Shown one piece after another: positions 1,942 through 33,406 of a stretch of DNA of 39,435 bases. Under the pieces are notes generated by a model that made no database searches, was not told where the DNA came from, and was given only the letters and a program-made list of their open reading frames with translations. The position numbers and the translations under genes are program-made. Positions within the stretch are counted from its first letter, which is position 1, and every line of letters begins with the position of its first letter. Origin of the DNA: a virus; UHGV virus genome UHGV-1377012; one strand, 5' to 3'.

Positions 1942-2046
1942 AGTTACCACCGTTTAATGTGCATAAAGAACCCCCTTAGTTGGTGAGTTCATTATACACA
2001 ATAAACCATATGTGGATTAAATTTGATCGGATAACTCTTAACGAAA

Positions 2047-2061
2047 TTACCCTAGAGGTGA
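2047..2061. promoter_or_regulatory. Palindrome TTACC-CTAGA-GGTGA (one mismatch to TTACC-N5-GGTAA), candidate operator
   Basis: Lies 6 bp past the esterase stop and upstream of the holin-like gene; a minus-strand TATAAT (1991..1996) and CCACATATGG (2006..2015) lie between it and the holin start. Confidence 0.5.
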
Positions 2062-2066
2062 TTTGC

Positions 2067-3443
2067 CTAAATTTCTATCTCAAACGGAAGGCAATAATTC
2101 AGCATGCAATTGTCTGCATGATAGCGATCTTTAAAATGATTTGGGAATTCATCACTATCGCAAAGCTCTCCTATCCGTGACTCTTTAAGATAACTCACCG
2201 TACCTTTAAGGCCGGAAGTATTGATGCTCACAGTATCATCTGAAATGATCTTAACGTCGCTAGCAGATAGTTTTTTTCCTGTGAAATGAAAACCCATAGG
2301 ACAACCATCTTTTATAAATGAATACATTCCGTTGAGGGTTTTTCTAAATTGCAATGGCTTCACAGGAATATTAAATTTTATAATAATGCTGTTACCATCG
2401 ATAGAATGTGATTTATAACATAGAGGTGACCATGATGAACCTGACAACTTACTAGTTAAATACGCCTGTGCCATTTTTTCGCCATGTGCACGCTGGGCAT
2501 GTGGGTACATATGAATTTCGTTCGTCAGGTGATATCTTGGGCCAGAGATGTACATCTTAATGCCGGAATGTTTTGCTTCATCATGGGCCATGCGTTGCTC
2601 GACGTTAAGACCAAAGTGTGAGTTTATCCTTCTACCTTCGGTTTTAAAACCATGCCAACAGTAATTGCTTTGCTCAAAAATAAACTCTGGCTCTTTGCCC
2701 TGCCCTGTGATTTTTACAATATCTTTAACGTAATCATTTCTGAATGATAGAAGTTTTTCAGAATATCCTTTAGGGGCGATGGCATCATTTTCCCCCTGAA
2801 TCCAGAAGATGCCATCAACTTGAATATCACTTTTGATAATATCTTTTATTTTTTCGAGCATCCACATACCGTTCAGATAAGGGTAGCGGAATTTTGGCTC
2901 GCGATAATAAAGCAGTGATTTATTTCCTGATACTACATTGTAGTCAGAAGACTCTTTAGTTAGAGGTTTGTTATAGTTGTCACCATTAAGAATTAAATCT
3001 TTGCTAGGCTTAATAAGTTGCTCTATATACTGGGATCCCCTTCCGTGCCCGAAGATAATAAGATTGTCATTTGGAAACGCTTTTGAGATATGTGAAATTA
3101 TTCCGTATACAGGCCCTTCTCCTGCATCAATACCAAATGCCATTCTGTCTAAATTGGTTAAGCTTGCGCCGCCTGAGGACAAAGTAAATGCACTTGCCAA
3201 ATCAGTTGTGATGAATTTACTACCGTCTCTCTCACCCTCATATGATTCAAGATAAGAATCCCATGGGCTTGGTGTTCTCCATGTCTGTGAATAATCAACG
3301 GTTCCTGTTGAGTTGGATTGTCCGTAAATAATGAATACGCGGTTTTTCCTTCCAGCAACAAAATCTGCAAAAAGAAGACCAGATCCTGACAGCGCGCCGA
3401 TGGCCGCAGCTAATTTAATAAAATTTCTTCTGGAAACTGACAT
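2067..3443 (-). CDS. Secreted SGNH/SASA-family esterase (sialate O-acetylesterase-like), Tat signal peptide
   Basis: N-terminus MSVSRRNFIKLAAAIGALSGS is a twin-arginine signal; IIYGQSNSTG matches the GQSN catalytic block of SASA/SGNH esterases; visibly AT-rich; start moved to the ATG at 3443 with GAGGTG upstream. Confidence 0.65.
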   Translation of the reverse strand: MSVSRRNFIKLAAAIGALSGSGLLFADFVAGRKNRVFIIYGQSNSTGTVDYSQTWRTPSPWDSYLESYEGERDGSKFITTDLASAFTLSSGGASLTNLDRMAFGIDAGEGPVYGIISHISKAFPNDNLIIFGHGRGSQYIEQLIKPSKDLILNGDNYNKPLTKESSDYNVVSGNKSLLYYREPKFRYPYLNGMWMLEKIKDIIKSDIQVDGIFWIQGENDAIAPKGYSEKLLSFRNDYVKDIVKITGQGKEPEFIFEQSNYCWHGFKTEGRRINSHFGLNVEQRMAHDEAKHSGIKMYISGPRYHLTNEIHMYPHAQRAHGEKMAQAYLTSKLSGSSWSPLCYKSHSIDGNSIIIKFNIPVKPLQFRKTLNGMYSFIKDGCPMGFHFTGKKLSASDVKIISDDTVSINTSGLKGTVSYLKESRIGELCDSDEFPNHFKDRYHADNCMLNYCLPFEIEI

Positions 3444-3482: not shown

Positions 3483-5834
3483 TTAGAGATTTCCTGTTGA
3501 CTGCCAAGTGCCAGGAGTGCCGGCGGTAACACATACCCACTCCTTAGGGCTCCCGACAGCAGGAGAGGAATTTATGCATCGCGATCCCCTTGGCCAGGTC
3601 AAAGTGGTTGGAGCGGCGGTATCGTAAAGCACAGGGAGAGATGACCCTTGTTTCACCAAACTTCCAAGCCACGCTGGAACTGTTGGCACATCCCAACGAC
3701 AGCCAGAGTGGAAGAACGCTCCAACACCATCTCCGTACATTCTGATTGCGTCTCCAGTTGTATTTGTGCTGTGACAATCGATAAGGATTAGTGGTTCATT
3801 GTTCCATGAAACGTTTCTGAAGAAACCGTTGAACCTAACTCCTTCAAGTTTCGTAGCGGAGGTTACAGTGAATGCTATATCAGATGTGCCTGCGCCAATG
3901 TGGCTAAAGTTACAATTTTCAAATGTCAGATATCCGGTGGTTCCACCTGTACCTGTCATAACAACGCCACAAGAAGCAGAGCAATTTCTTACGGTAGTAT
4001 TATTGGCAGTGTTACCGAAAGCAGCAGATACGTTAGAAATGCTGACGTTTTCAACTGTGATATTGTCGCCATTGCTACAATGGATCGCCGTTGAATCGTA
4101 AATGTCACCATATTTTGTTATACTTCCTCCATTGAAATGGCAGCGAGTTCCTTGCAAAGAAATCATATAGCTTCCGCTAAATGACTGGCTCCATCTATGG
4201 ATATGGCAATTACTCAACTCAACGTTAAGTAGTGTTCCTGCATCATTGTAAATGTAGATGTCTATTTTTTTGTTATCGCCAGCCAGATGGTCGAAAATGT
4301 GGATGTAACGTGTAGTGGCATCATCTCCAGATTGTGAATACACACGAATGCCGTACTCGCTATTTCCGAATGTTTGATTTCCTTTAAAGGTTGTACCAGT
4401 GCTCTTCCAGGCAATACATCCTCTGCCGCCATCAGATATTTCTGTATCACTCAGATAACCATTATAGTTACCGACAGAATTGATAATTTCATTGAATGTC
4501 CCGTAACGGTCTTCAAGACCCATACCCCAGTTATTTTCAGAAATGCAATCCTGAATTTTACAACGTGTGCAATTGATCATCTGAATACCAGAGCCAGGGA
4601 CCCTTCTTACTGTCATTCCTTTAACAGAACTATAAGAGGTATCAGCAACTAATACCGCAGACACTACACTGTTTGCTCCAGCCCTGACACCTGTGCCAAC
4701 TATAAAACCACCTGAGGTATGTGTATTAGCCCCCCTTATCGCCAATATATAATTTGCCAGCGAAGTACCCTGGATTAACCTTGATGATCCAAAGTCTACA
4801 GACCTACCTGCTTGCAATGTTATAGTGGCATCAAGAAGATAATCACCACCTGTAAACTGCATTCTCTTGCCAACAGCAAACATGGCGTTAATTGCTGCTG
4901 AGCACGGGGTAACTCCATCAGGCACTGCGCCAGCCATTAATGGGTTAATGATATCAGCATTAACACGAATCCATGCCGCTCCACCAGGAGTCTTGAATAC
5001 GGTAACGCCGTTGTCTGTATATGCACTTCCATCAAGCACTGCGCGAAGCTGGCCACCACCGTAACCTGTGCCAGAGGTATATTCTTTCAGGAGCACCCGC
5101 TGACCATCGGAAGCTGGCTCCGTTGCACGGAGAACTGTGACGTTAGGGAATTGCCCTATCAATTTGAAGCCGTCACTTTTTGCCAGCTCCATCAGAACTT
5201 CAGATGCGGAAGCTGATGGCGGGAGAACGACAATTGCATTACCCATGCTATCAAACGCGGGCATTTTGTTTGCCCTGTCAACTGCTGATGGTAGCTGATT
5301 GATTGGCTCTGGTACGCGCAGAGTACGCATCAGGTTGCCACTGGACAGCGTATCAACATAATTCTTGGTAGCTGCATCCTGAGGGTCCCGTGGGTCGCGG
5401 AGATTGCGAATATAGTTGTTCAGCGCATCGTACCAGTTCGCGATGCTTGATGGTTTACGCAGCGCCAGGCGGAACACGCTGAATGCCTGTTGGATCAGCA
5501 TCGTCAGCTTATCGAATGCGTCCTCATGCACCTCTGCGAAGAACTTACCCTGGTTGCGCAGATCGGTATCCTGCGTAACCGGTAGCTCTCTTGATATAGA
5601 AATCTGATAACCGTTAACCAACGCCTTCGACAGAATTACATTGCCGCCGTTATACCCTCCCGCACCAGTGACTATGTAATCAGTATCAAGAGCCAGCACA
5701 GCGATATTTTCGTCAAGGTCAACCACCTGCACTACCAGATCAGATTCATTGAAAACCCTAAAGGTATAAGGGAATGAAGTCGTAACGCCATTGCCTGTGT
5801 ATTCGTTGTGGTCAACTTCGGTTGAGACCGTCAT
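3483..5834 (-). CDS. Tailspike / receptor-binding protein with probable beta-helix depolymerase domain
   Basis: 783 aa; N-terminal roughly 150 aa look like a virion-attachment domain, the remainder is rich in Gly/Asn/Ser/Thr repeats typical of right-handed beta-helix tailspikes; last structural gene before the cargo and lysis genes. Confidence 0.7.
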   Translation of the reverse strand: MTVSTEVDHNEYTGNGVTTSFPYTFRVFNESDLVVQVVDLDENIAVLALDTDYIVTGAGGYNGGNVILSKALVNGYQISISRELPVTQDTDLRNQGKFFAEVHEDAFDKLTMLIQQAFSVFRLALRKPSSIANWYDALNNYIRNLRDPRDPQDAATKNYVDTLSSGNLMRTLRVPEPINQLPSAVDRANKMPAFDSMGNAIVVLPPSASASEVLMELAKSDGFKLIGQFPNVTVLRATEPASDGQRVLLKEYTSGTGYGGGQLRAVLDGSAYTDNGVTVFKTPGGAAWIRVNADIINPLMAGAVPDGVTPCSAAINAMFAVGKRMQFTGGDYLLDATITLQAGRSVDFGSSRLIQGTSLANYILAIRGANTHTSGGFIVGTGVRAGANSVVSAVLVADTSYSSVKGMTVRRVPGSGIQMINCTRCKIQDCISENNWGMGLEDRYGTFNEIINSVGNYNGYLSDTEISDGGRGCIAWKSTGTTFKGNQTFGNSEYGIRVYSQSGDDATTRYIHIFDHLAGDNKKIDIYIYNDAGTLLNVELSNCHIHRWSQSFSGSYMISLQGTRCHFNGGSITKYGDIYDSTAIHCSNGDNITVENVSISNVSAAFGNTANNTTVRNCSASCGVVMTGTGGTTGYLTFENCNFSHIGAGTSDIAFTVTSATKLEGVRFNGFFRNVSWNNEPLILIDCHSTNTTGDAIRMYGDGVGAFFHSGCRWDVPTVPAWLGSLVKQGSSLPVLYDTAAPTTLTWPRGSRCINSSPAVGSPKEWVCVTAGTPGTWQSTGNL

Positions 5835-23217: not shown

Positions 23218-23294
23218 GTGGCATTAGCTCAGCTGGACAGAGCAACCGCCTTCTAAGCGGTTGGTCGCAGGTTCGAATCCTGCATGCCACGCCA
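23218..23294 (+). tRNA. tRNA-Arg (anticodon TCT, reads AGA)
   Basis: 77-nt cloverleaf: acceptor GTGGCAT/ATGCCAC, D-stem GCTC/GAGC, anticodon stem ACCGC/GCGGT with loop CTTCTAA, T-arm GCAGG-TTCGAAT-CCTGC, discriminator G and encoded CCA. Confidence 0.9.
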
Positions 23295-29902: not shown

Positions 29903-29963
29903 CTTTACCCTCGCTTATCCACATAACTTATTGATTACATTGATAACTAAAAAGATCGTCGAT

Positions 29964-30425: not shown

Positions 30426-31211
30426 TTACTTGATAAATCCTGCCGCCTTTCCCCGCCTGTATTCCTCCATCAGCCACTGCGCCGGTGTTATTCCCCCCAG
30501 GGTGGCGGCGTTAGGCATGCACCCGAAACTTCGCCCTGGTGAATGGTAAACGTCTCTCCCTGTGTCCGGAGGTGTACTCATGGGTTCTGGCTTTGCCTGT
30601 ATGCTGATCACCGGATCGGGTATCTGCTGTCCGGAAGCCACCTTTTTCGCCCAATCATCGAGCAGCCTGCGCGCGTGTTTCTCAACCTCAATCTCGCTAA
30701 GCTGGCGCTGATACATTGCACGGCGGGTATCACATACGACCCAGTACATAACCGGATGTCGCCACGGGAATCTTTCGGGACCACCAGGATATAAACTTTT
30801 TTCCTTGCTGTACCGGTGAAACTCCGCCATCACATCGTCAATGGTGACGCCAAGAACCATCTTGCTGTCTTTGCACCACTTGATGAATTGCCCTGGCGAC
30901 GGCCAGAACGGAGACTCACTGGCGCGGGCGTGGCGCATACCAGCAGAAACCTGTTCACGGGTTCGGATCCCACCTTCGGCAAACGCAGCAATCCACTGCT
31001 GTTTTGCAGCAACTTCCTGCTCTGGCGTCTTCAGGTTGGTTACCACTGCCGCCGGAAACAGTTGTTTCAGCTGTTTGAAAAGGGCATCAACAAGCCTCTC
31101 TGCTGACATGTTCACCACATTGTCATTGTTGACGTACTGATGCTCATAACCTGACATGCGAGCAAGGGCTTCTCCGTCACGGTTTTGTATCGCGGTAAAA
31201 ACGTTGTTCAC
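30426..31211 (-). CDS. Replication protein P-like (helicase loader)
   Basis: Block QQWIAAFAEGGIRTREQVSAGMRHARASESPFWPSPGQFIKWCKD aligns by eye with the lambda P region ...RRQWVLAFRENGITTMEQVNAGMRVARRQNRPFLPSPGQFVAWCRE; GTG at 31211 with GGAGG 8 nt upstream overlaps the O-like stop (GTGA). Confidence 0.8.
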   Translation of the reverse strand: MNNVFTAIQNRDGEALARMSGYEHQYVNNDNVVNMSAERLVDALFKQLKQLFPAAVVTNLKTPEQEVAAKQQWIAAFAEGGIRTREQVSAGMRHARASESPFWPSPGQFIKWCKDSKMVLGVTIDDVMAEFHRYSKEKSLYPGGPERFPWRHPVMYWVVCDTRRAMYQRQLSEIEVEKHARRLLDDWAKKVASGQQIPDPVISIQAKPEPMSTPPDTGRDVYHSPGRSFGCMPNAATLGGITPAQWLMEEYRRGKAAGFIK

Positions 31212-32023
31212 AAGAAATCCTCCCACGCTTCAGGGCTGTTCCAGTGCGGAACGTTGTTATCAGGTAATGTTGATTGCTTCTGTCTGCTAATCTGCAGCCG
31301 CCTTGCCAGCTTCTGCTCCCACTGCGCCTGATGGTATGCCTTACCCTCAGCCATCCAGTAAATTCTGAACTCTGCAAGTTCCTGTGCCGTTGGCAGACTG
31401 TCCAGGTAGATCCCCTGCAATGAGCTTTTCCGAAGAAAGTCATCTGATGGTTGCCATTGTTCATGCATGACAAATTTGCCTAATTGCCCTGGCCCACCAG
31501 GAGGAACAAAGTTATTCATCACGGCGTTGTTTGCGCCGGGGTCATGAGGCACAGAATCCCCGCTTTTTGTCCTGCTCTCCCTCTCTTGGTTAAATGACTG
31601 GTTATATGACTGGTTCTGGATCCCGTTTTTGGGATCATTCAACATCCCGTTTTTGGGATCATTCAACATCCCGTTTTTGGGTATATTCCCGTTTTCGGGA
31701 ACATTACCGTTTTTGGGTTCATTCCCCCATTCCCGGTTGCCTTTAATGTTCCCGTTTTTGGTTATATTAAGAGAGAAAACCCGCACTCTTTTCGTCGCTC
31801 CCTTTCTCTCTCCGGTATCTGAAATAAGCCCCATTTTCATGAGCGATATAAGTCCGGCCTGCACGGTTTTTTTATTCAGACAAGTGTCTTTAACGAGGCG
31901 TTCTATGCTGGGGTAGCAGAGGTTATATTCATCGGCTCTGTCAGCCATCGAGAGCAGTATGAGCTTTAATGATGAGCTGCCTGGATCTGTCTCCCAGGCC
32001 CAATCTGTTGCATGTCTGCTCAT
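31208..32023 (-). CDS. Replication initiator (O-like, N-terminal HTH) containing the origin iterons
   Basis: N-terminal WAWE...LKLILLSMADRADEYNLCYPSIERL resembles the HTH of phage replication initiators; central PKNG repeats are the translation of the DNA iterons; directly upstream of the P-like gene. Confidence 0.7.
   Translation of the reverse strand: MSRHATDWAWETDPGSSSLKLILLSMADRADEYNLCYPSIERLVKDTCLNKKTVQAGLISLMKMGLISDTGERKGATKRVRVFSLNITKNGNIKGNREWGNEPKNGNVPENGNIPKNGMLNDPKNGMLNDPKNGIQNQSYNQSFNQERESRTKSGDSVPHDPGANNAVMNNFVPPGGPGQLGKFVMHEQWQPSDDFLRKSSLQGIYLDSLPTAQELAEFRIYWMAEGKAYHQAQWEQKLARRLQISRQKQSTLPDNNVPHWNSPEAWEDFL
31594..31761. repeat. Iteron array (candidate origin of replication) inside the initiator gene
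   Basis: Six copies of CCCGTTTT(T/C)GGG (31622, 31646, 31670, 31688, 31706, 31751), the first three on an exact 24-bp period, preceded by ATGACTGGTT twice. Confidence 0.65.
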
Positions 32024-32038
32024 GATTAATCTCCGCTA

Positions 32039-32239
32039 TCAGCTTGAGTGTTGTGGGGAGGAATTAATCATGATCTGCTTAATCTCTGCCCTGATGCGAC
32101 GGTTTGATTCCATGGTGCACTCAACACAGTGCCCGTTGTAAACCCAGCGTTCACTGTCATGTCCGTGCTTACATTGTTTTCCGGTGTAATAGCGTTTAAG
32201 TCCGCGCTTTGCGGCATCAATACGTGTAATGATTTCCAT
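32039..32239 (-). CDS. Small zinc-ribbon protein in the cII position
   Basis: 66 aa from the ATG at 32239 (the track start at 32302 adds a hydrophobic leader); CKHGH...HCVEC metal-binding pattern. Confidence 0.45.
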   Translation of the reverse strand: MEIITRIDAAKRGLKRYYTGKQCKHGHDSERWVYNGHCVECTMESNRRIRAEIKQIMINSSPQHSS

Positions 32240-32319
32240 GGTAAGCCCTGTTATTAGTATTGGGATTACGGTTATTTTGTGCTGACACAAAAAAAAGATC
32301 AACCATATTTGGTTTTTTA

Positions 32320-32348: not shown

Positions 32349-32368
32349 AGACCGCCGGATGGCGGTCT
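32349..32368 (-). terminator. Hairpin AGACCGCC-GGAT-GGCGGTCT downstream of the Cro-like gene
   Basis: 8-bp GC-rich stem 21 bp after the cro-like stop; only a short U-tract on the minus strand, so intrinsic termination is uncertain. Confidence 0.35.
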
Positions 32369-32389
32369 ACAGAGGGTTGTGGCTGGATA

Positions 32390-32620
32390 TCATGAGTAGA
32401 AGAAGTATGCCAGTTCTGCTTTTGAGCGCAGCCATTGTCTTGTTTTACAGGCTTTAAAAAGCCCATTCATCAATACCTTACCTGGCATTTTGCGCTTACC
32501 TGTTAAGTGAGTCTGGATATAGTGACTCGTCGTTCCGGCTTCCTGTGCGAAGGCTTCACGCTCATCCGGAGTAAGTGCAAGCCAGTGCTTTTTGAAATCG
32601 AAATGTCCGTTATCGCTCAT
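32390..32620 (-). CDS. Cro-like HTH regulator
   Basis: 76 aa; GTTSHYIQTHLTGKRKMPGKV resembles the Cro/CI-type HTH; first gene of the rightward-equivalent early operon, divergent from the repressor-like gene. Confidence 0.65.
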   Translation of the reverse strand: MSDNGHFDFKKHWLALTPDEREAFAQEAGTTSHYIQTHLTGKRKMPGKVLMNGLFKACKTRQWLRSKAELAYFFYS

Positions 32621-32656
32621 AGCTATTGCCTGATATTTATTTCAGATAATAAATAT

Positions 32657-32719
32657 TCACCCATAAGGTAACAAAAATCAAGGATAGTTACCTATGGGGT
32701 GCATTTACCTGTTGGGTAA
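32657..32719. promoter_or_regulatory. Operator cluster (OR-equivalent): three TTACC-N5-GGTAA-type sites
   Basis: TCACC-CATAA-GGTAA (32657..32671), TTACC-TATGG-GGTGC (32688..32702) and perfect TTACC-TGTTG-GGTAA (32705..32719) in the 154-bp divergent intergenic region. Confidence 0.6.
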
Positions 32720-32774: not shown

Positions 32775-33359
32775 ATGAAAAGTATCCAGGACGTCCGCAG
32801 GCAAAATCTCAACGACTTGATCGACCGTGAATTCAATGGTGTTCAGACGCGGATGGCAGAAAAACTTGGAACTCAGGCAAATCTGGTAAACCGCTGGGCT
32901 CTTGGCAAGAAGGTTATCGGCGACCAGGTTGCGCGAAAAATTGAAGCTGCCGCCAATAAACCCCGTAACTGGCTTGATATCGATCGCTCGCTTTCTCAGG
33001 AAGGTTTTCAGCCTGTCGGCCCGAGCGATATAGGTCAGCTGGCGGCTCACAACCTGGAACGCTGGATGAGCGAAAGCCGCGACCTTTCAACACAGGGAAA
33101 ACTTCACCGCGCATCCGGCGTCGCCCAGGTGACAATCAGCCGCCTGTTAAACAATGAGGTCAGCGTTTCCATTTCCACCCTGGAGAATGTTGCATCCGCA
33201 TTCGGGCGTCACGGCTATGAATTACTGATTCACCCGCACGACCCTGCGACCATCAACTATGACCGCTCGCGCTACGCATTGTTACCCGAAACCGAGAAAG
33301 CAAAGATCGAAAGTTACATTGAATTTGTCATCAACCAGAACGAAAAAAACAAACAATAA
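32775..33359 (+). CDS. Repressor-like DNA-binding protein with two HTH-like segments and no recognisable S24 autopeptidase domain
   Basis: 194 aa; TRMAEKLGTQANLVNRWALGKK and GVAQVTISRLLNNEVSVSISTLENVASAFG look like HTH motifs; no Ala-Gly/Ser...Lys LexA-type cleavage module seen in the C-terminal region; divergent from the Cro-like gene and followed by a strong terminator. Confidence 0.55.
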   Translation: MKSIQDVRRQNLNDLIDREFNGVQTRMAEKLGTQANLVNRWALGKKVIGDQVARKIEAAANKPRNWLDIDRSLSQEGFQPVGPSDIGQLAAHNLERWMSESRDLSTQGKLHRASGVAQVTISRLLNNEVSVSISTLENVASAFGRHGYELLIHPHDPATINYDRSRYALLPETEKAKIESYIEFVINQNEKNKQ

Positions 33360-33380
33360 AATCATATTTTTCATTAAGTA

Positions 33381-33406
33381 AGCCGCCTTCTGGCGGCTTT
33401 TTTATT
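33381..33406 (+). terminator. Rho-independent terminator AGCCGCC-TTCT-GGCGGCT followed by T-tract
   Basis: 7-bp GC stem followed by TTTTTTATT, 22 bp after the repressor-like stop. Confidence 0.75.

What the first reader, a model, noticed from the sequence alone, without database searches (positions are those of the whole stretch)
31594..31761. Origin-like iteron array embedded in the initiator gene, encoding a PKNG peptide repeat
Six CCCGTTTT(T/C)GGG iterons, three on an exact 24-bp period, lie inside the O-like gene directly upstream of the lambda P-like gene, as the lambda origin lies inside O. The iterons translate into an NG/PKNG repeat linker, so DNA-level constraint dominates this protein segment.
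Basis: partly seen in the sequence, partly recalled or inferred. Interest (0 to 1): 0.45.

Follow-up and report, generated by a model that had tools for sequence, protein, structure and literature searches.

The report
Phage replication origin inside initiator gene
A row of six short DNA repeats inside the replication-initiator gene of a phiV10-like E. coli phage is almost certainly that phage's lambda-style origin of replication; it is ordinary in kind, but belongs to a large initiator family whose origins have not been described.

Summary
Six CCCGTTTT(T/C)GGG sites lie at 31620-31764 with spacing 24, 24, 18, 18 and 45 bp, against 0.37 expected by chance. They are the only copies in the window and its strongest tandem repeat.

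They sit in the disordered linker of a 271-aa protein (31208-32023, minus strand). This protein has an N-terminal HTH_36 winged helix and a C-terminal DnaT-like domain, and is followed by a lambda P homologue. The window is about 98% identical to phage phiV10.

The constraint is on the DNA, not the peptide. In 80 loci encoding relatives of the N-domain, the core CC(A/G)AAAACGG occurs 104 times in the linker and never elsewhere in 753 kb. It is read in all three frames, and spacings are often not multiples of three. Array geometry is conserved, while the repeat sequence changes with the N-domain clade. E. coli alleles differ by whole repeat units (4-9 in phage contigs, up to 11).

A second element follows the last repeat at a fixed distance: a 12-bp-period GAAYC repeat (31587-31619), kept in 64 of 81 loci.

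Best reading: an origin that works like lambda's, built on a different initiator family. Origin firing is untested.

The parts
31208..32023 (-). Replication-initiator gene (271 aa): N-terminal winged helix, iteron-encoded disordered linker, C-terminal DnaT-like domain
   Evidence: ORF. Pfam HTH_36 at aa 18-67 (E 1.8e-10) and DnaT at aa 184-252 (E 1.1e-15). Annotated 'replication initiation protein' in phiV10.
31763..32023 (-). Coding region for the N-terminal winged-helix domain (aa 1-87), the presumed iteron-binding module
   Evidence: AlphaFold2 pLDDT 83-92 with H-H-H-H-beta-beta topology. Foldseek returns only winged-helix DNA binders, all weakly. The family has 3,704 clusters with the domain always N-terminal.
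31749..31764 (.). Iteron 1 in gene order: TTCCCGTTTTTGGTTA on the + strand, encoding TKNG
31704..31719 (.). Iteron 2: TTACCGTTTTTGGGTT, encoding PKNG; 45 bp from iteron 1
31686..31701 (.). Iteron 3: TTCCCGTTTTCGGGAA, a perfect dyad encoding PENG; 18-bp spacing
31668..31683 (.). Iteron 4: ATCCCGTTTTTGGGTA, encoding PKNG; 18-bp spacing
31644..31659 (.). Iteron 5: ATCCCGTTTTTGGGAT, a perfect dyad encoding PKNG; 24-bp spacing
31620..31635 (.). Iteron 6: ATCCCGTTTTTGGGAT, a perfect dyad encoding PKNG; 24-bp spacing; last before the 12-mers
31587..31619 (-). 12-bp-period repeat. Coding strand reads CCA GAACCAGTCATA TAACCAGTCATT TAACC and encodes QNQSYNQSFNQ. Candidate unwinding or single-strand loading element.
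   Evidence: TRF period 12. The family-wide motif GAAYC-N7-GAAYC occurs in the linker of 64 of 81 loci, against 9 hits in the other 767 kb. It sits at a fixed distance from the last iteron. Duplex stability is a local minimum, in the 5th percentile.
31546..31586 (-). Purine-rich tract on the coding strand (AAGAGAGGGAGAGCAGGACAAAAAGCGGGGAT), which includes a half-iteron at 31556-31572. It occupies the position of lambda's A-rich region.
   Evidence: Sequence. The degenerate site lies 63 bp past the last iteron in many alleles. Relatives have A-rich runs at the same place.
31268..31474 (-). Coding region for the DnaT-like C-terminal domain, the presumed contact with the P-like loader and/or single-stranded DNA
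   Evidence: Pfam DnaT. It matches the E. coli DnaT C-terminal domain in PDB entries 9zbt, 4ou6 and 2ru8 (E 7e-21). It is co-inherited with P in phage Tyrion despite a different N-domain.
30426..31226 (-). Lambda P-like helicase-loader gene, overlapping the initiator stop codon
   Evidence: Pfam Phage_lambda_P (E 1.4e-56). 31% identical to lambda P (E 3e-35).
32349..32674 (-). Context only: a pR-like promoter match (32674-32646), a cro-like ORF (32620-32390) and a terminator-like hairpin (32368-32349) upstream of the replication genes. The divergent repressor gene is at 32775-33359 (+).
   Evidence: Consensus scans only. ORFs and HTH_3 repressor. The same layout and terminators are annotated in phiV10.

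Best explanation
The array is the initiator-binding part of this phiV10-like phage's origin of replication, embedded in the linker-coding part of the initiator gene.

Proposed mechanism (each step marked as shown or inferred):
1. After derepression, transcription from the pR-like promoter makes the 271-aa initiator and the P-like loader. The gene layout is shown; the transcription is inferred.
2. Dimers of the N-terminal winged helix bind the six 16-bp dyads ATCCC-AAAAAC-GGGAT. This is inferred from the dyad symmetry, from co-variation with the N-domain across the family, and from the lambda O precedent.
3. The resulting O-some-like complex destabilises the neighbouring DNA on the promoter-distal side, namely the 12-bp-period GAAYC repeats and the purine-rich tract at 31546-31619 (inferred).
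4. The DnaT-like C-terminal domain, together with the P-like protein, brings in host DnaB helicase (inferred from homology and co-inheritance).

Because the sites lie in coding DNA, the protein tolerates them as a disordered NG/PKNG linker. The number of units drifts in whole 18- or 24-bp steps.
For: - The sites are real, non-random and unique to this spot.
- The gene context is a lambdoid replication module: repressor, cro-like gene, initiator, then P.
- Family-wide DNA-level selection: the exact core CC[AG]AAAACGG occurs 104 times in the linker of 39 of 80 homologous loci and 0 times in the other 753 kb on both strands.
- The core is used in three reading frames (77, 19 and 8 sites). In 18 of the 29 loci with at least two copies, at least two frames are used, and 31 of 65 spacings are not multiples of 3 (examples).
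- Array geometry is conserved. The window has 45, 18, 18, 24, 24; Acinetobacter loci have 45, 17, 17, 24, 24 or 46, 17, 17, 22, 22.
- More distant clades carry different dyads at the same place, changing together with the wing sequence of the N-domain. Examples are GTACCAAAAGTGGTAC, GTCGGGAAAACCCGAC and GGGGCAGGAGCTGCCC in Stx phage 24B.
- Downstream genes in relatives are DnaC-like loaders, P-like loaders, DnaB-like helicases or a primase-helicase.
- Alleles differ by whole units: 4-9 sites across 79 phage contigs with the core invariant in 463 sites, and 11 units in the longest allele, P0038.
- Rare codons CCC and GGG are used throughout.
- The linker is predicted to be disordered and the N-domain to be a confident winged helix.
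- Lambda and the Stx phages set the precedent: iterons inside O, bound by O dimers and required for initiation (PMC3349717, PMC7466680).
Against: - There is no experimental or marker-frequency evidence that replication starts here.
- The flanking region is only mildly AT-rich: 33% GC for the 12-mers, in the 2nd-6th percentile of duplex stability in the window and far from the window's minima.
- No DnaA boxes lie nearby.
- The initiator is not a sequence relative of lambda O, so transfer of function rests on architecture.
- Co-variation of iteron and N-domain is confounded with phylogeny.
- The identical codons among the six copies could partly reflect recent duplication.
Confidence: 0.8

Rival explanations
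1. The sites do bind the initiator, but mainly for regulation. They would act by autorepression or roadblock of the O-P transcript, or by titration or handcuffing of the initiator. Replication would start elsewhere in the genome.
For: Iterons in plasmids and in lambda also act in negative control by titration or handcuffing (discussed in PMC3349717). The AT-rich region next to the array is weak. The window has much less stable stretches elsewhere, for example 32630-32660 and 33351-33381.
Against: There is no other iteron-like array in the window. The array's position, polarity and phased 12-mer/A-rich extension are conserved next to helicase or loader genes across the family, as expected for an origin. 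The less stable stretches elsewhere are ordinary intergenic promoter regions.
Confidence: 0.1
2. It is a protein-level tandem repeat. A flexible NG/PKNG linker would be selected for its length or composition, and the DNA repeat would be a by-product (a variable-number repeat).
For: The segment is predicted to be disordered. Copy number varies between alleles in frame.
Against: The same DNA core is read in three frames, giving unrelated peptides (PKNG, TQKR, PKT). Spacings of 17, 22, 23 and 25 bp are common. The sites are dyad-symmetric. Rare codons are used uniformly. The core is invariant in 463 sites while the spacers vary.
Confidence: 0.03
3. The dyads are binding sites for another factor (phage repressor/Cro/CII-like protein, terminase, recombinase or a host protein), or they form RNA or DNA hairpins such as antisense terminators.
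For: Neighbouring iterons create terminator-like hairpins on the antisense strand at 31630-31649 and 31654-31673. The dyads look like operators.
Against: The dyad sequence tracks the N-domain of the very gene that carries it, across hosts from E. coli to Acinetobacter, Desulfovibrio and betaproteobacteria, where the neighbouring regulators differ. There is no Rfam match. The motif is absent from the repressor/cro intergenic region.
Confidence: 0.05

Closest known systems
Lambda origin (ori-lambda) inside gene O, with P downstream
   Same: - Several dyad-symmetric sites of the form TCCC...AAAAC...GGGA lie in the middle of the initiator gene, between the DNA-binding N-domain and the loader-contacting C-domain.
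- Spacing is about 20-24 bp, and an A/purine-rich stretch lies on the promoter-distal side in the same orientation.
- A P-family loader gene follows, and the module sits in the early-right operon (PMC3349717).
   Different: - The initiator has no detectable sequence similarity to O and belongs to Pfam HTH_36 plus DnaT rather than Phage_rep_O.
- The sites are 16 bp rather than 18-19 bp, and there are six rather than four.
- Where lambda has a 38-bp highly AT-rich tract, this phage has 12-bp-period GAAYC repeats and a purine-rich but not very AT-rich tract.
Origins of Stx phages 933W and P27 (six iterons in O)
   Same: Six iterons lie inside the initiator gene, and extra iterons lengthen the protein by whole units. 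The initiators act as dimers (PMC7466680).
   Different: Those O proteins are close lambda O relatives; this one is not. Here copy number varies widely between alleles: 4-9 sites in phage contigs and up to 11 units in P0038.
DopC/DopE, the domesticated O-like/P-like pair of Cellvibrionales and Oceanospirillales (Brezellec et al. 2017, PMC5509034)
   Same: The domain architecture is identical: HTH_36 N-domain plus DnaT C-terminal motif, next to a lambda-P-family protein.
   Different: The authors found no iteron-like sequences in dopC, and the genes are chromosomal residents. The window gene is the phage form and carries the iterons.
Iteron plasmid origins (RK2 TrfA, F RepE) with repeated 13-mers in the unwinding element
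   Same: Winged-helix initiators bind repeated double-stranded sites. Next to these lies a set of short phased repeats that the same initiator binds as single-stranded DNA (PMC4081077). This is the best available model for the GAAYC 12-mers.
   Different: - Plasmid iterons are direct, non-dyad repeats of 17-22 bp in intergenic DNA.
- Their Rep proteins have two winged helices (Rep_3 type).
- DnaA boxes are usual there, and none is present here.
E. coli DnaT (primosomal protein I), C-terminal domain
   Same: Residues 180-265 align with DnaT residues 85-170 (E 7e-21).
   Different: DnaT has no origin-binding winged helix and acts in PriA-dependent restart, not at an origin. GenBank labels such as 'primosomal protein I' for this phage gene describe only its C-terminal third.

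Membership tests
Lambda-type phage origin (iterons inside the initiator gene) | Four or more repeated, dyad-symmetric sites inside the initiator ORF, between the N- and C-terminal domains | tested here: met
   Six sites fall at aa 88-134 of the 271-aa protein, between HTH_36 (aa 18-67) and DnaT (aa 184-252).
Lambda-type phage origin (iterons inside the initiator gene) | AT-rich unwinding region directly next to the iterons on the promoter-distal side | tested here: inconclusive
   There is a local stability minimum at 31581-31611, but only in the 5th percentile of the window. GC is 33% for the 12-mers and about 42% over the array. Relatives have clear A-rich runs at that place.
Lambda-type phage origin (iterons inside the initiator gene) | Helicase-loader gene (P family) immediately downstream, in an operon under immunity control | tested here: met
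   Phage_lambda_P at E 1.4e-56 and 31% identity to lambda P. A repressor and cro-like genes lie upstream.
Lambda-type phage origin (iterons inside the initiator gene) | The initiator binds the sites and the fragment supports replication | not testable with these tools
   Needs EMSA or footprinting and a replication assay.
Lambda O protein family (Pfam Phage_rep_O, PF04492) | Sequence membership of the initiator | tested here: not met
   There is no PF04492 hit, whereas lambda O hits it at E 5.7e-36. The best BLASTP match between the two has E 0.07 over 17 residues.
HTH_36 plus DnaT_C phage initiators (DopC-like 'O-like' proteins) | N-terminal HTH_36 winged helix | tested here: met
   PF13730 at E 1.8e-10. 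The structure model is confident for aa 1-89.
HTH_36 plus DnaT_C phage initiators (DopC-like 'O-like' proteins) | C-terminal DnaT-type domain and an adjacent P-family gene | tested here: met
   PF17948 at E 1.1e-15. PDB DnaT chains match at E 7e-21. The P gene overlaps the stop codon.
Iteron plasmid origins (Rep_3 / RepA / TrfA type) | Rep_3-type initiator with two winged helices | tested here: not met
   There is no Rep_3 hit.
Iteron plasmid origins (Rep_3 / RepA / TrfA type) | DnaA boxes beside the iterons | tested here: not met
   The nearest DnaA box is at 29915, and DnaA boxes are not enriched.
Protein-level tandem repeat / low-complexity linker | The repeat is conserved as a peptide, with free synonymous variation and a fixed reading frame | tested here: not met
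   Three reading frames are used and many spacings are not multiples of 3. Synonymous sites are fixed on rare codons.

The most novel reading that the evidence does not exclude
The invariant 12-bp-period element GAAYCTnYCAAn (two to three copies, window 31587-31619) may be a family-wide, sequence-specific melting or helicase-loading element. The conserved N-terminal winged helix would read it, probably as single-stranded DNA. This would make it a phage counterpart of DnaA-trios or of the TrfA/RepE 13-mers.

The element sits at a fixed phase after the last iteron in nearly every member of this initiator family of about 3,700 clusters. It persists although the iteron sequence, the C-terminal domain and the helicase or loader partner all change. 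If the reading is right, the signature of winged helix, dyad array and GAAYC 12-mers would predict origins in thousands of prophages from sequence alone.
Probability: 0.3. Interest if true: 0.65.

Novelty: new variant of a known kind. Interest (0 to 1): 0.45.

Why it matters
It assigns a probable origin of replication to phiV10/epsilon15-like (Uetakevirus) phages and to about 8% of complete E. coli genomes that carry this gene (424 of 5,426). No origin is annotated there, and I found none described in the searchable literature.

More generally, it shows that a large family of HTH_36 phage initiators carries its origin inside its own gene, as lambda O does. The family spans gamma-, beta- and delta-proteobacteria, and the origin has a conserved two-part grammar.

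It is also a very clean natural example of DNA-level selection overriding protein coding, with the same motif read in three frames. Two practical points follow:
- The label 'primosomal protein I / DnaT' for these genes is misleading.
- The array breaks assemblies and gene calls.

Tried and rejected
- **GC skew as origin evidence.** The cumulative minimum near 31-32 kb coincides with the switch in transcription direction, so it is uninformative.
- **DnaA boxes.** Four in the window, as expected by chance, and none near the array.
- **Rfam.** The only hit is a tRNA elsewhere.
- **Promoter and terminator scans.** Counts are no higher than in shuffles, so they were used only as context.
- **A strong AT-rich unwinding element.** Not found.
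- **First protein search with the 87-aa N-domain.** It returned only truncated proteins. These nevertheless gave the reading-frame clue.
- **Full-length protein search.** It returned near-identical E. coli alleles only.
- **Foldseek against the PDB.** Only generic winged-helix regulators, with E of 6e-3 or worse, and no specific initiator.
- **C-terminal domain in the AlphaFold model.** Low confidence because the alignment was shallow. The sequence match to solved DnaT structures was used instead.
- **Phage Tyrion.** It shares P and the DnaT-like domain but has an unrelated N-domain and no such iterons. It is therefore not informative about the sites themselves, only about modularity.
- **Literature.** No paper describing an origin in phiV10, epsilon15 or HTH_36 initiators was found. 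The original epsilon15 and phiV10 genome papers are not held, so I cannot exclude that they mention the repeats.
- **Strict four-base dyad search.** It under-calls imperfect sites, so the k-mer and anchored alignments were relied on instead.

Full report
**What is there.**
On the + strand the motif CCCGTTTT(T/C)GGG occurs at 31622, 31646, 31670 and 31688 (exact), and at 31706 and 31751 (one mismatch each). There is no further match with up to one mismatch in the 39,435-bp window on either strand. Dinucleotide shuffles gave a mean of 0.37, and none of 100 reached six matches. Spacing is 24, 24, 18, 18 and 45 bp. With their flanks the sites are 16-bp dyads (ATCCCGTTTTTGGGAT), and three are perfect palindromic arms around a T5/A5 centre. 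This is the strongest tandem repeat in the window. Directly beside it, at 31587-31619, lies a different 12-bp repeat, TGGTTA(A/T)ATGAC.

**Context.**
The array lies in ORF 31208-32023 on the minus strand (271 aa). Pfam finds HTH_36 at aa 18-67 and the DnaT DNA-binding domain at aa 184-252. The C-terminal part aligns with solved E. coli DnaT structures at E 7e-21.

The next gene, 30426-31226, overlaps the stop codon. It is a lambda P family member (E 1.4e-56) and is 31% identical to lambda P (E 3e-35). Upstream lie a small ORF, a cro-like ORF, a pR-like promoter match and a divergent HTH_3 repressor gene.

The window is 97.6-98.5% identical over this region to phiV10 and its relatives (genus Uetakevirus). 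In phiV10 the gene is annotated 'replication initiation protein' or 'primosomal protein', and no origin is annotated. The gene is present in 424 of 5,426 complete E. coli genomes.

A structure model gives a confident winged helix for aa 1-89 (pLDDT 83-92). For aa 90 to about 190, the part encoded by the repeats, it gives no structure (pLDDT about 30). Foldseek finds only generic winged-helix DNA binders, all weakly.

**DNA constraint or protein constraint?**
Within the window, all five Pro codons of the repeats are CCC, against 6.2% of Pro codons in the phage's long ORFs. Five of six Gly codons are GGG, against 15% usage. Recent duplication could explain part of this.

The decisive test came from relatives. 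Truncated database proteins with a 60%-identical N-domain showed 'TQKR' repeats where the window has 'PKNG'. ACC CAA AAA CGx and CCC AAA AAC GGx are the same DNA read one base apart. I then fetched 80 genomic loci encoding N-domain relatives at 41-87% identity. These came from Superficieibacter, Proteus, Providencia, Vibrio, Acinetobacter, Marinomonas, Pseudoalteromonas, Wohlfahrtiimonas, Desulfovibrio, betaproteobacteria and others.

- The exact core CC[AG]AAAACGG occurs 104 times in the 450 nt after the N-domain in 39 of these loci. It never occurs elsewhere in 753 kb on either strand.
- The sites use all three reading frames (77, 19 and 8 sites).
- Of the 29 loci with two or more copies, 18 use at least two frames.
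- Of 65 spacings, 31 are not multiples of three.
- In a Desulfovibrio locus three successive sites 17 bp apart read TQKR, TKNG and PETE.

So the DNA is what is conserved, and the peptide is a by-product.

**Family-wide anatomy.**
Nearly every locus has 3-8 repeats at the same place, with strikingly similar geometry. The window has 45, 18, 18, 24, 24. Several Acinetobacter loci have 45, 17, 17, 24, 24 or 46, 17, 17, 22, 22, and others have 18, 18, 24, 24.

More distant clades carry different dyads in the same position:
- GTACC-AAAAGT-GGTAC
- GTCCC-AACAAT-GGGAC
- GTCGGG-AAAA-CCCGAC
- GTGCC-AAAAGT-GGCAC
- GGGGCAG-GAG-CTGCCCC in the 'O' gene of Stx phage 24B

These change together with the wing region of the N-domain. 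For example, DTGERKGxTKRVRV goes with CCC/GGG arms, and FTGxxxGNGVKVY goes with TACC/GGTA arms. This is what binding of the N-domain to its own array would produce, although the correlation is confounded with phylogeny.

The N-domain family is large: 3,704 clusters at E of 1e-3 or better, with the domain always at the N-terminus. Of 118 representatives, all have HTH_36 but only 18 have the DnaT domain.

The downstream gene in relatives varies. It is a DnaC/IstB-like loader, a P-like loader, a DnaB-like helicase or a primase-helicase. These are replication modules with exchangeable helicase-recruitment parts. Phage Tyrion shows the reverse exchange: the same DnaT-like domain and P, with an unrelated N-domain and no such iterons.

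**Population variation.**
E. coli alleles differ by whole 18- or 24-bp units. In 79 phage contigs the site count is 4-9 with a mode of 6. Some of these counts include the degenerate half-site 63 bp beyond the array. The core CC[A/G]AAAACGG is invariant in all 463 sites, while spacer positions vary. Protein alleles range up to 311 aa, with 11 units. Lambda with four iterons and the Stx phages with six show the same kind of variation (PMC7466680).

**A second element.**
When the loci are aligned on the motif GAAYC-N7-GAAYC, the last iteron always ends at the same distance upstream. GAAY also starts each 24-bp iteron unit, 17 nt after the preceding CCC. After the last iteron it continues at a 12-bp period, with consensus GAAtCTacCAat in two or three copies, often followed by an A-rich run.

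The pair occurs in the linker of 64 of 81 loci, against 9 hits in the other 767 kb. It is read in two frames, as QNQS/QNLS or as EPI/EST. In the window it reads GAACCAGTCATA TAACCAGTCATT TAACC at 31587-31619. A purine-rich tract containing a half-iteron (31556-31572) follows it.

The element persists while the iterons, C-domains and partner proteins change, so only the N-domain or a universal host factor can be its reader. I propose that it is the unwinding or single-strand loading part of the origin. The analogy is with the repeated 13-mers that winged-helix plasmid initiators bind as single strands (PMC4081077). This is inference only. In the window the element is just modestly unstable (5th percentile).

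**Mechanism proposed.**
The sites, the gene module, the DNA-level conservation and the modularity are shown. The following steps are inferred:
1. Initiator dimers bind the dyads and build an O-some-like complex.
2. The promoter-distal 12-mer and purine tract melts.
3. The DnaT-like domain and the P-like protein deliver host DnaB.

The orientation matches lambda, with iterons followed by the A-rich side along the coding strand (PMC3349717).

**Comparison with what is known.**
The element works like ori-lambda, but the initiator is not a member of the lambda O family. Its architecture equals that of DopC, which together with DopE was described as a domesticated O/P pair in which no iterons were found (PMC5509034). 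The window gene is the phage form, with its origin still in place.

I found no description of an origin for phiV10 or epsilon15-like phages, or for HTH_36 initiators, in the searchable literature. The original genome papers were not available.

**Verdict.**
In kind this is an ordinary lambdoid in-gene origin, so a specialist would not be surprised by the window alone. The added value lies in three family-level results: a conserved two-part origin grammar, an unusually clear case of DNA constraint across three reading frames, and an unexplained invariant 12-mer element.

Confidence that the array is the initiator-binding core of the origin is 0.8. Interest is 0.45.

Noticed in passing
window 31587-31619 (and L007-L086, L168, L169 at the equivalent place): A 12-bp-period GAAYCTnYCAAn repeat in two or three copies, at a fixed distance after the last iteron. 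It is conserved at the DNA level in 64 of 81 loci although the iteron sequences and C-terminal domains differ, and it is read in two frames. What reads it is unknown.
   Followed up: partly
window 31556-31572: A degenerate half-iteron, ATCCCCGCTTTTTGTCC, lies 63 bp beyond the last iteron, on the far side of the 12-mers and inside a tract that is 85% pyrimidine on the + strand. The match is better in phiV10 (CCCGTTTTTTGT).
   Followed up: partly
window 31630-31649 and 31654-31673 (+ strand): Neighbouring iterons plus their T5 tracts score as terminator-like hairpins on the strand antisense to the initiator gene. This is probably a by-product of the dyads.
   Followed up: no
window 23218-23291 (+): A tRNA gene (Rfam 71.7 bits) lies in a lower-GC part of the phage genome (23-25 kb, 43-45% GC).
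   Followed up: no
window 2001-3000: The lowest-GC kilobase of the window (37% against about 49% overall), with several of the least stable 30-bp stretches. It may be acquired cargo.
   Followed up: no
proteins P0001-P0037: Many database entries for this gene are truncated at about 50-143 aa, ending in or just before the repeat array. Assemblies or gene calls apparently break or shift frame there. P0014 from Proteus reads the array as FECTQKRV x3.
   Followed up: partly
L168 (Stx2 phage vB_EcoP_24B, HM208303 12548-13324): The annotated 'O' gene of this Stx phage is a distant member of the same N-domain family (28.7% identity). It carries three GGGGCAGGAGCTGCCC dyads at spacing 21 and 24 bp, followed by a GAACC pair, right after its winged helix. 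Its partner 'P' is a primase/helicase-type protein, not lambda P.
   Followed up: partly
L002 (Enterobacter phage Tyrion, initiator at 3779-4546): A mosaic initiator: the same DnaT-like C-domain and P gene as the window, but an unrelated N-terminal domain with no Pfam match and no CCCAAAAACGGG iterons. Its own origin sites were not identified.
   Followed up: partly
window 32039-32302 (-) and 32390-32620 (-): Two small early-operon ORFs between the repressor and the initiator have no Pfam match. By position they are a cro-like and a cII-like gene. A terminator-like hairpin at 32368-32349 separates them, as annotated in phiV10.
   Followed up: no
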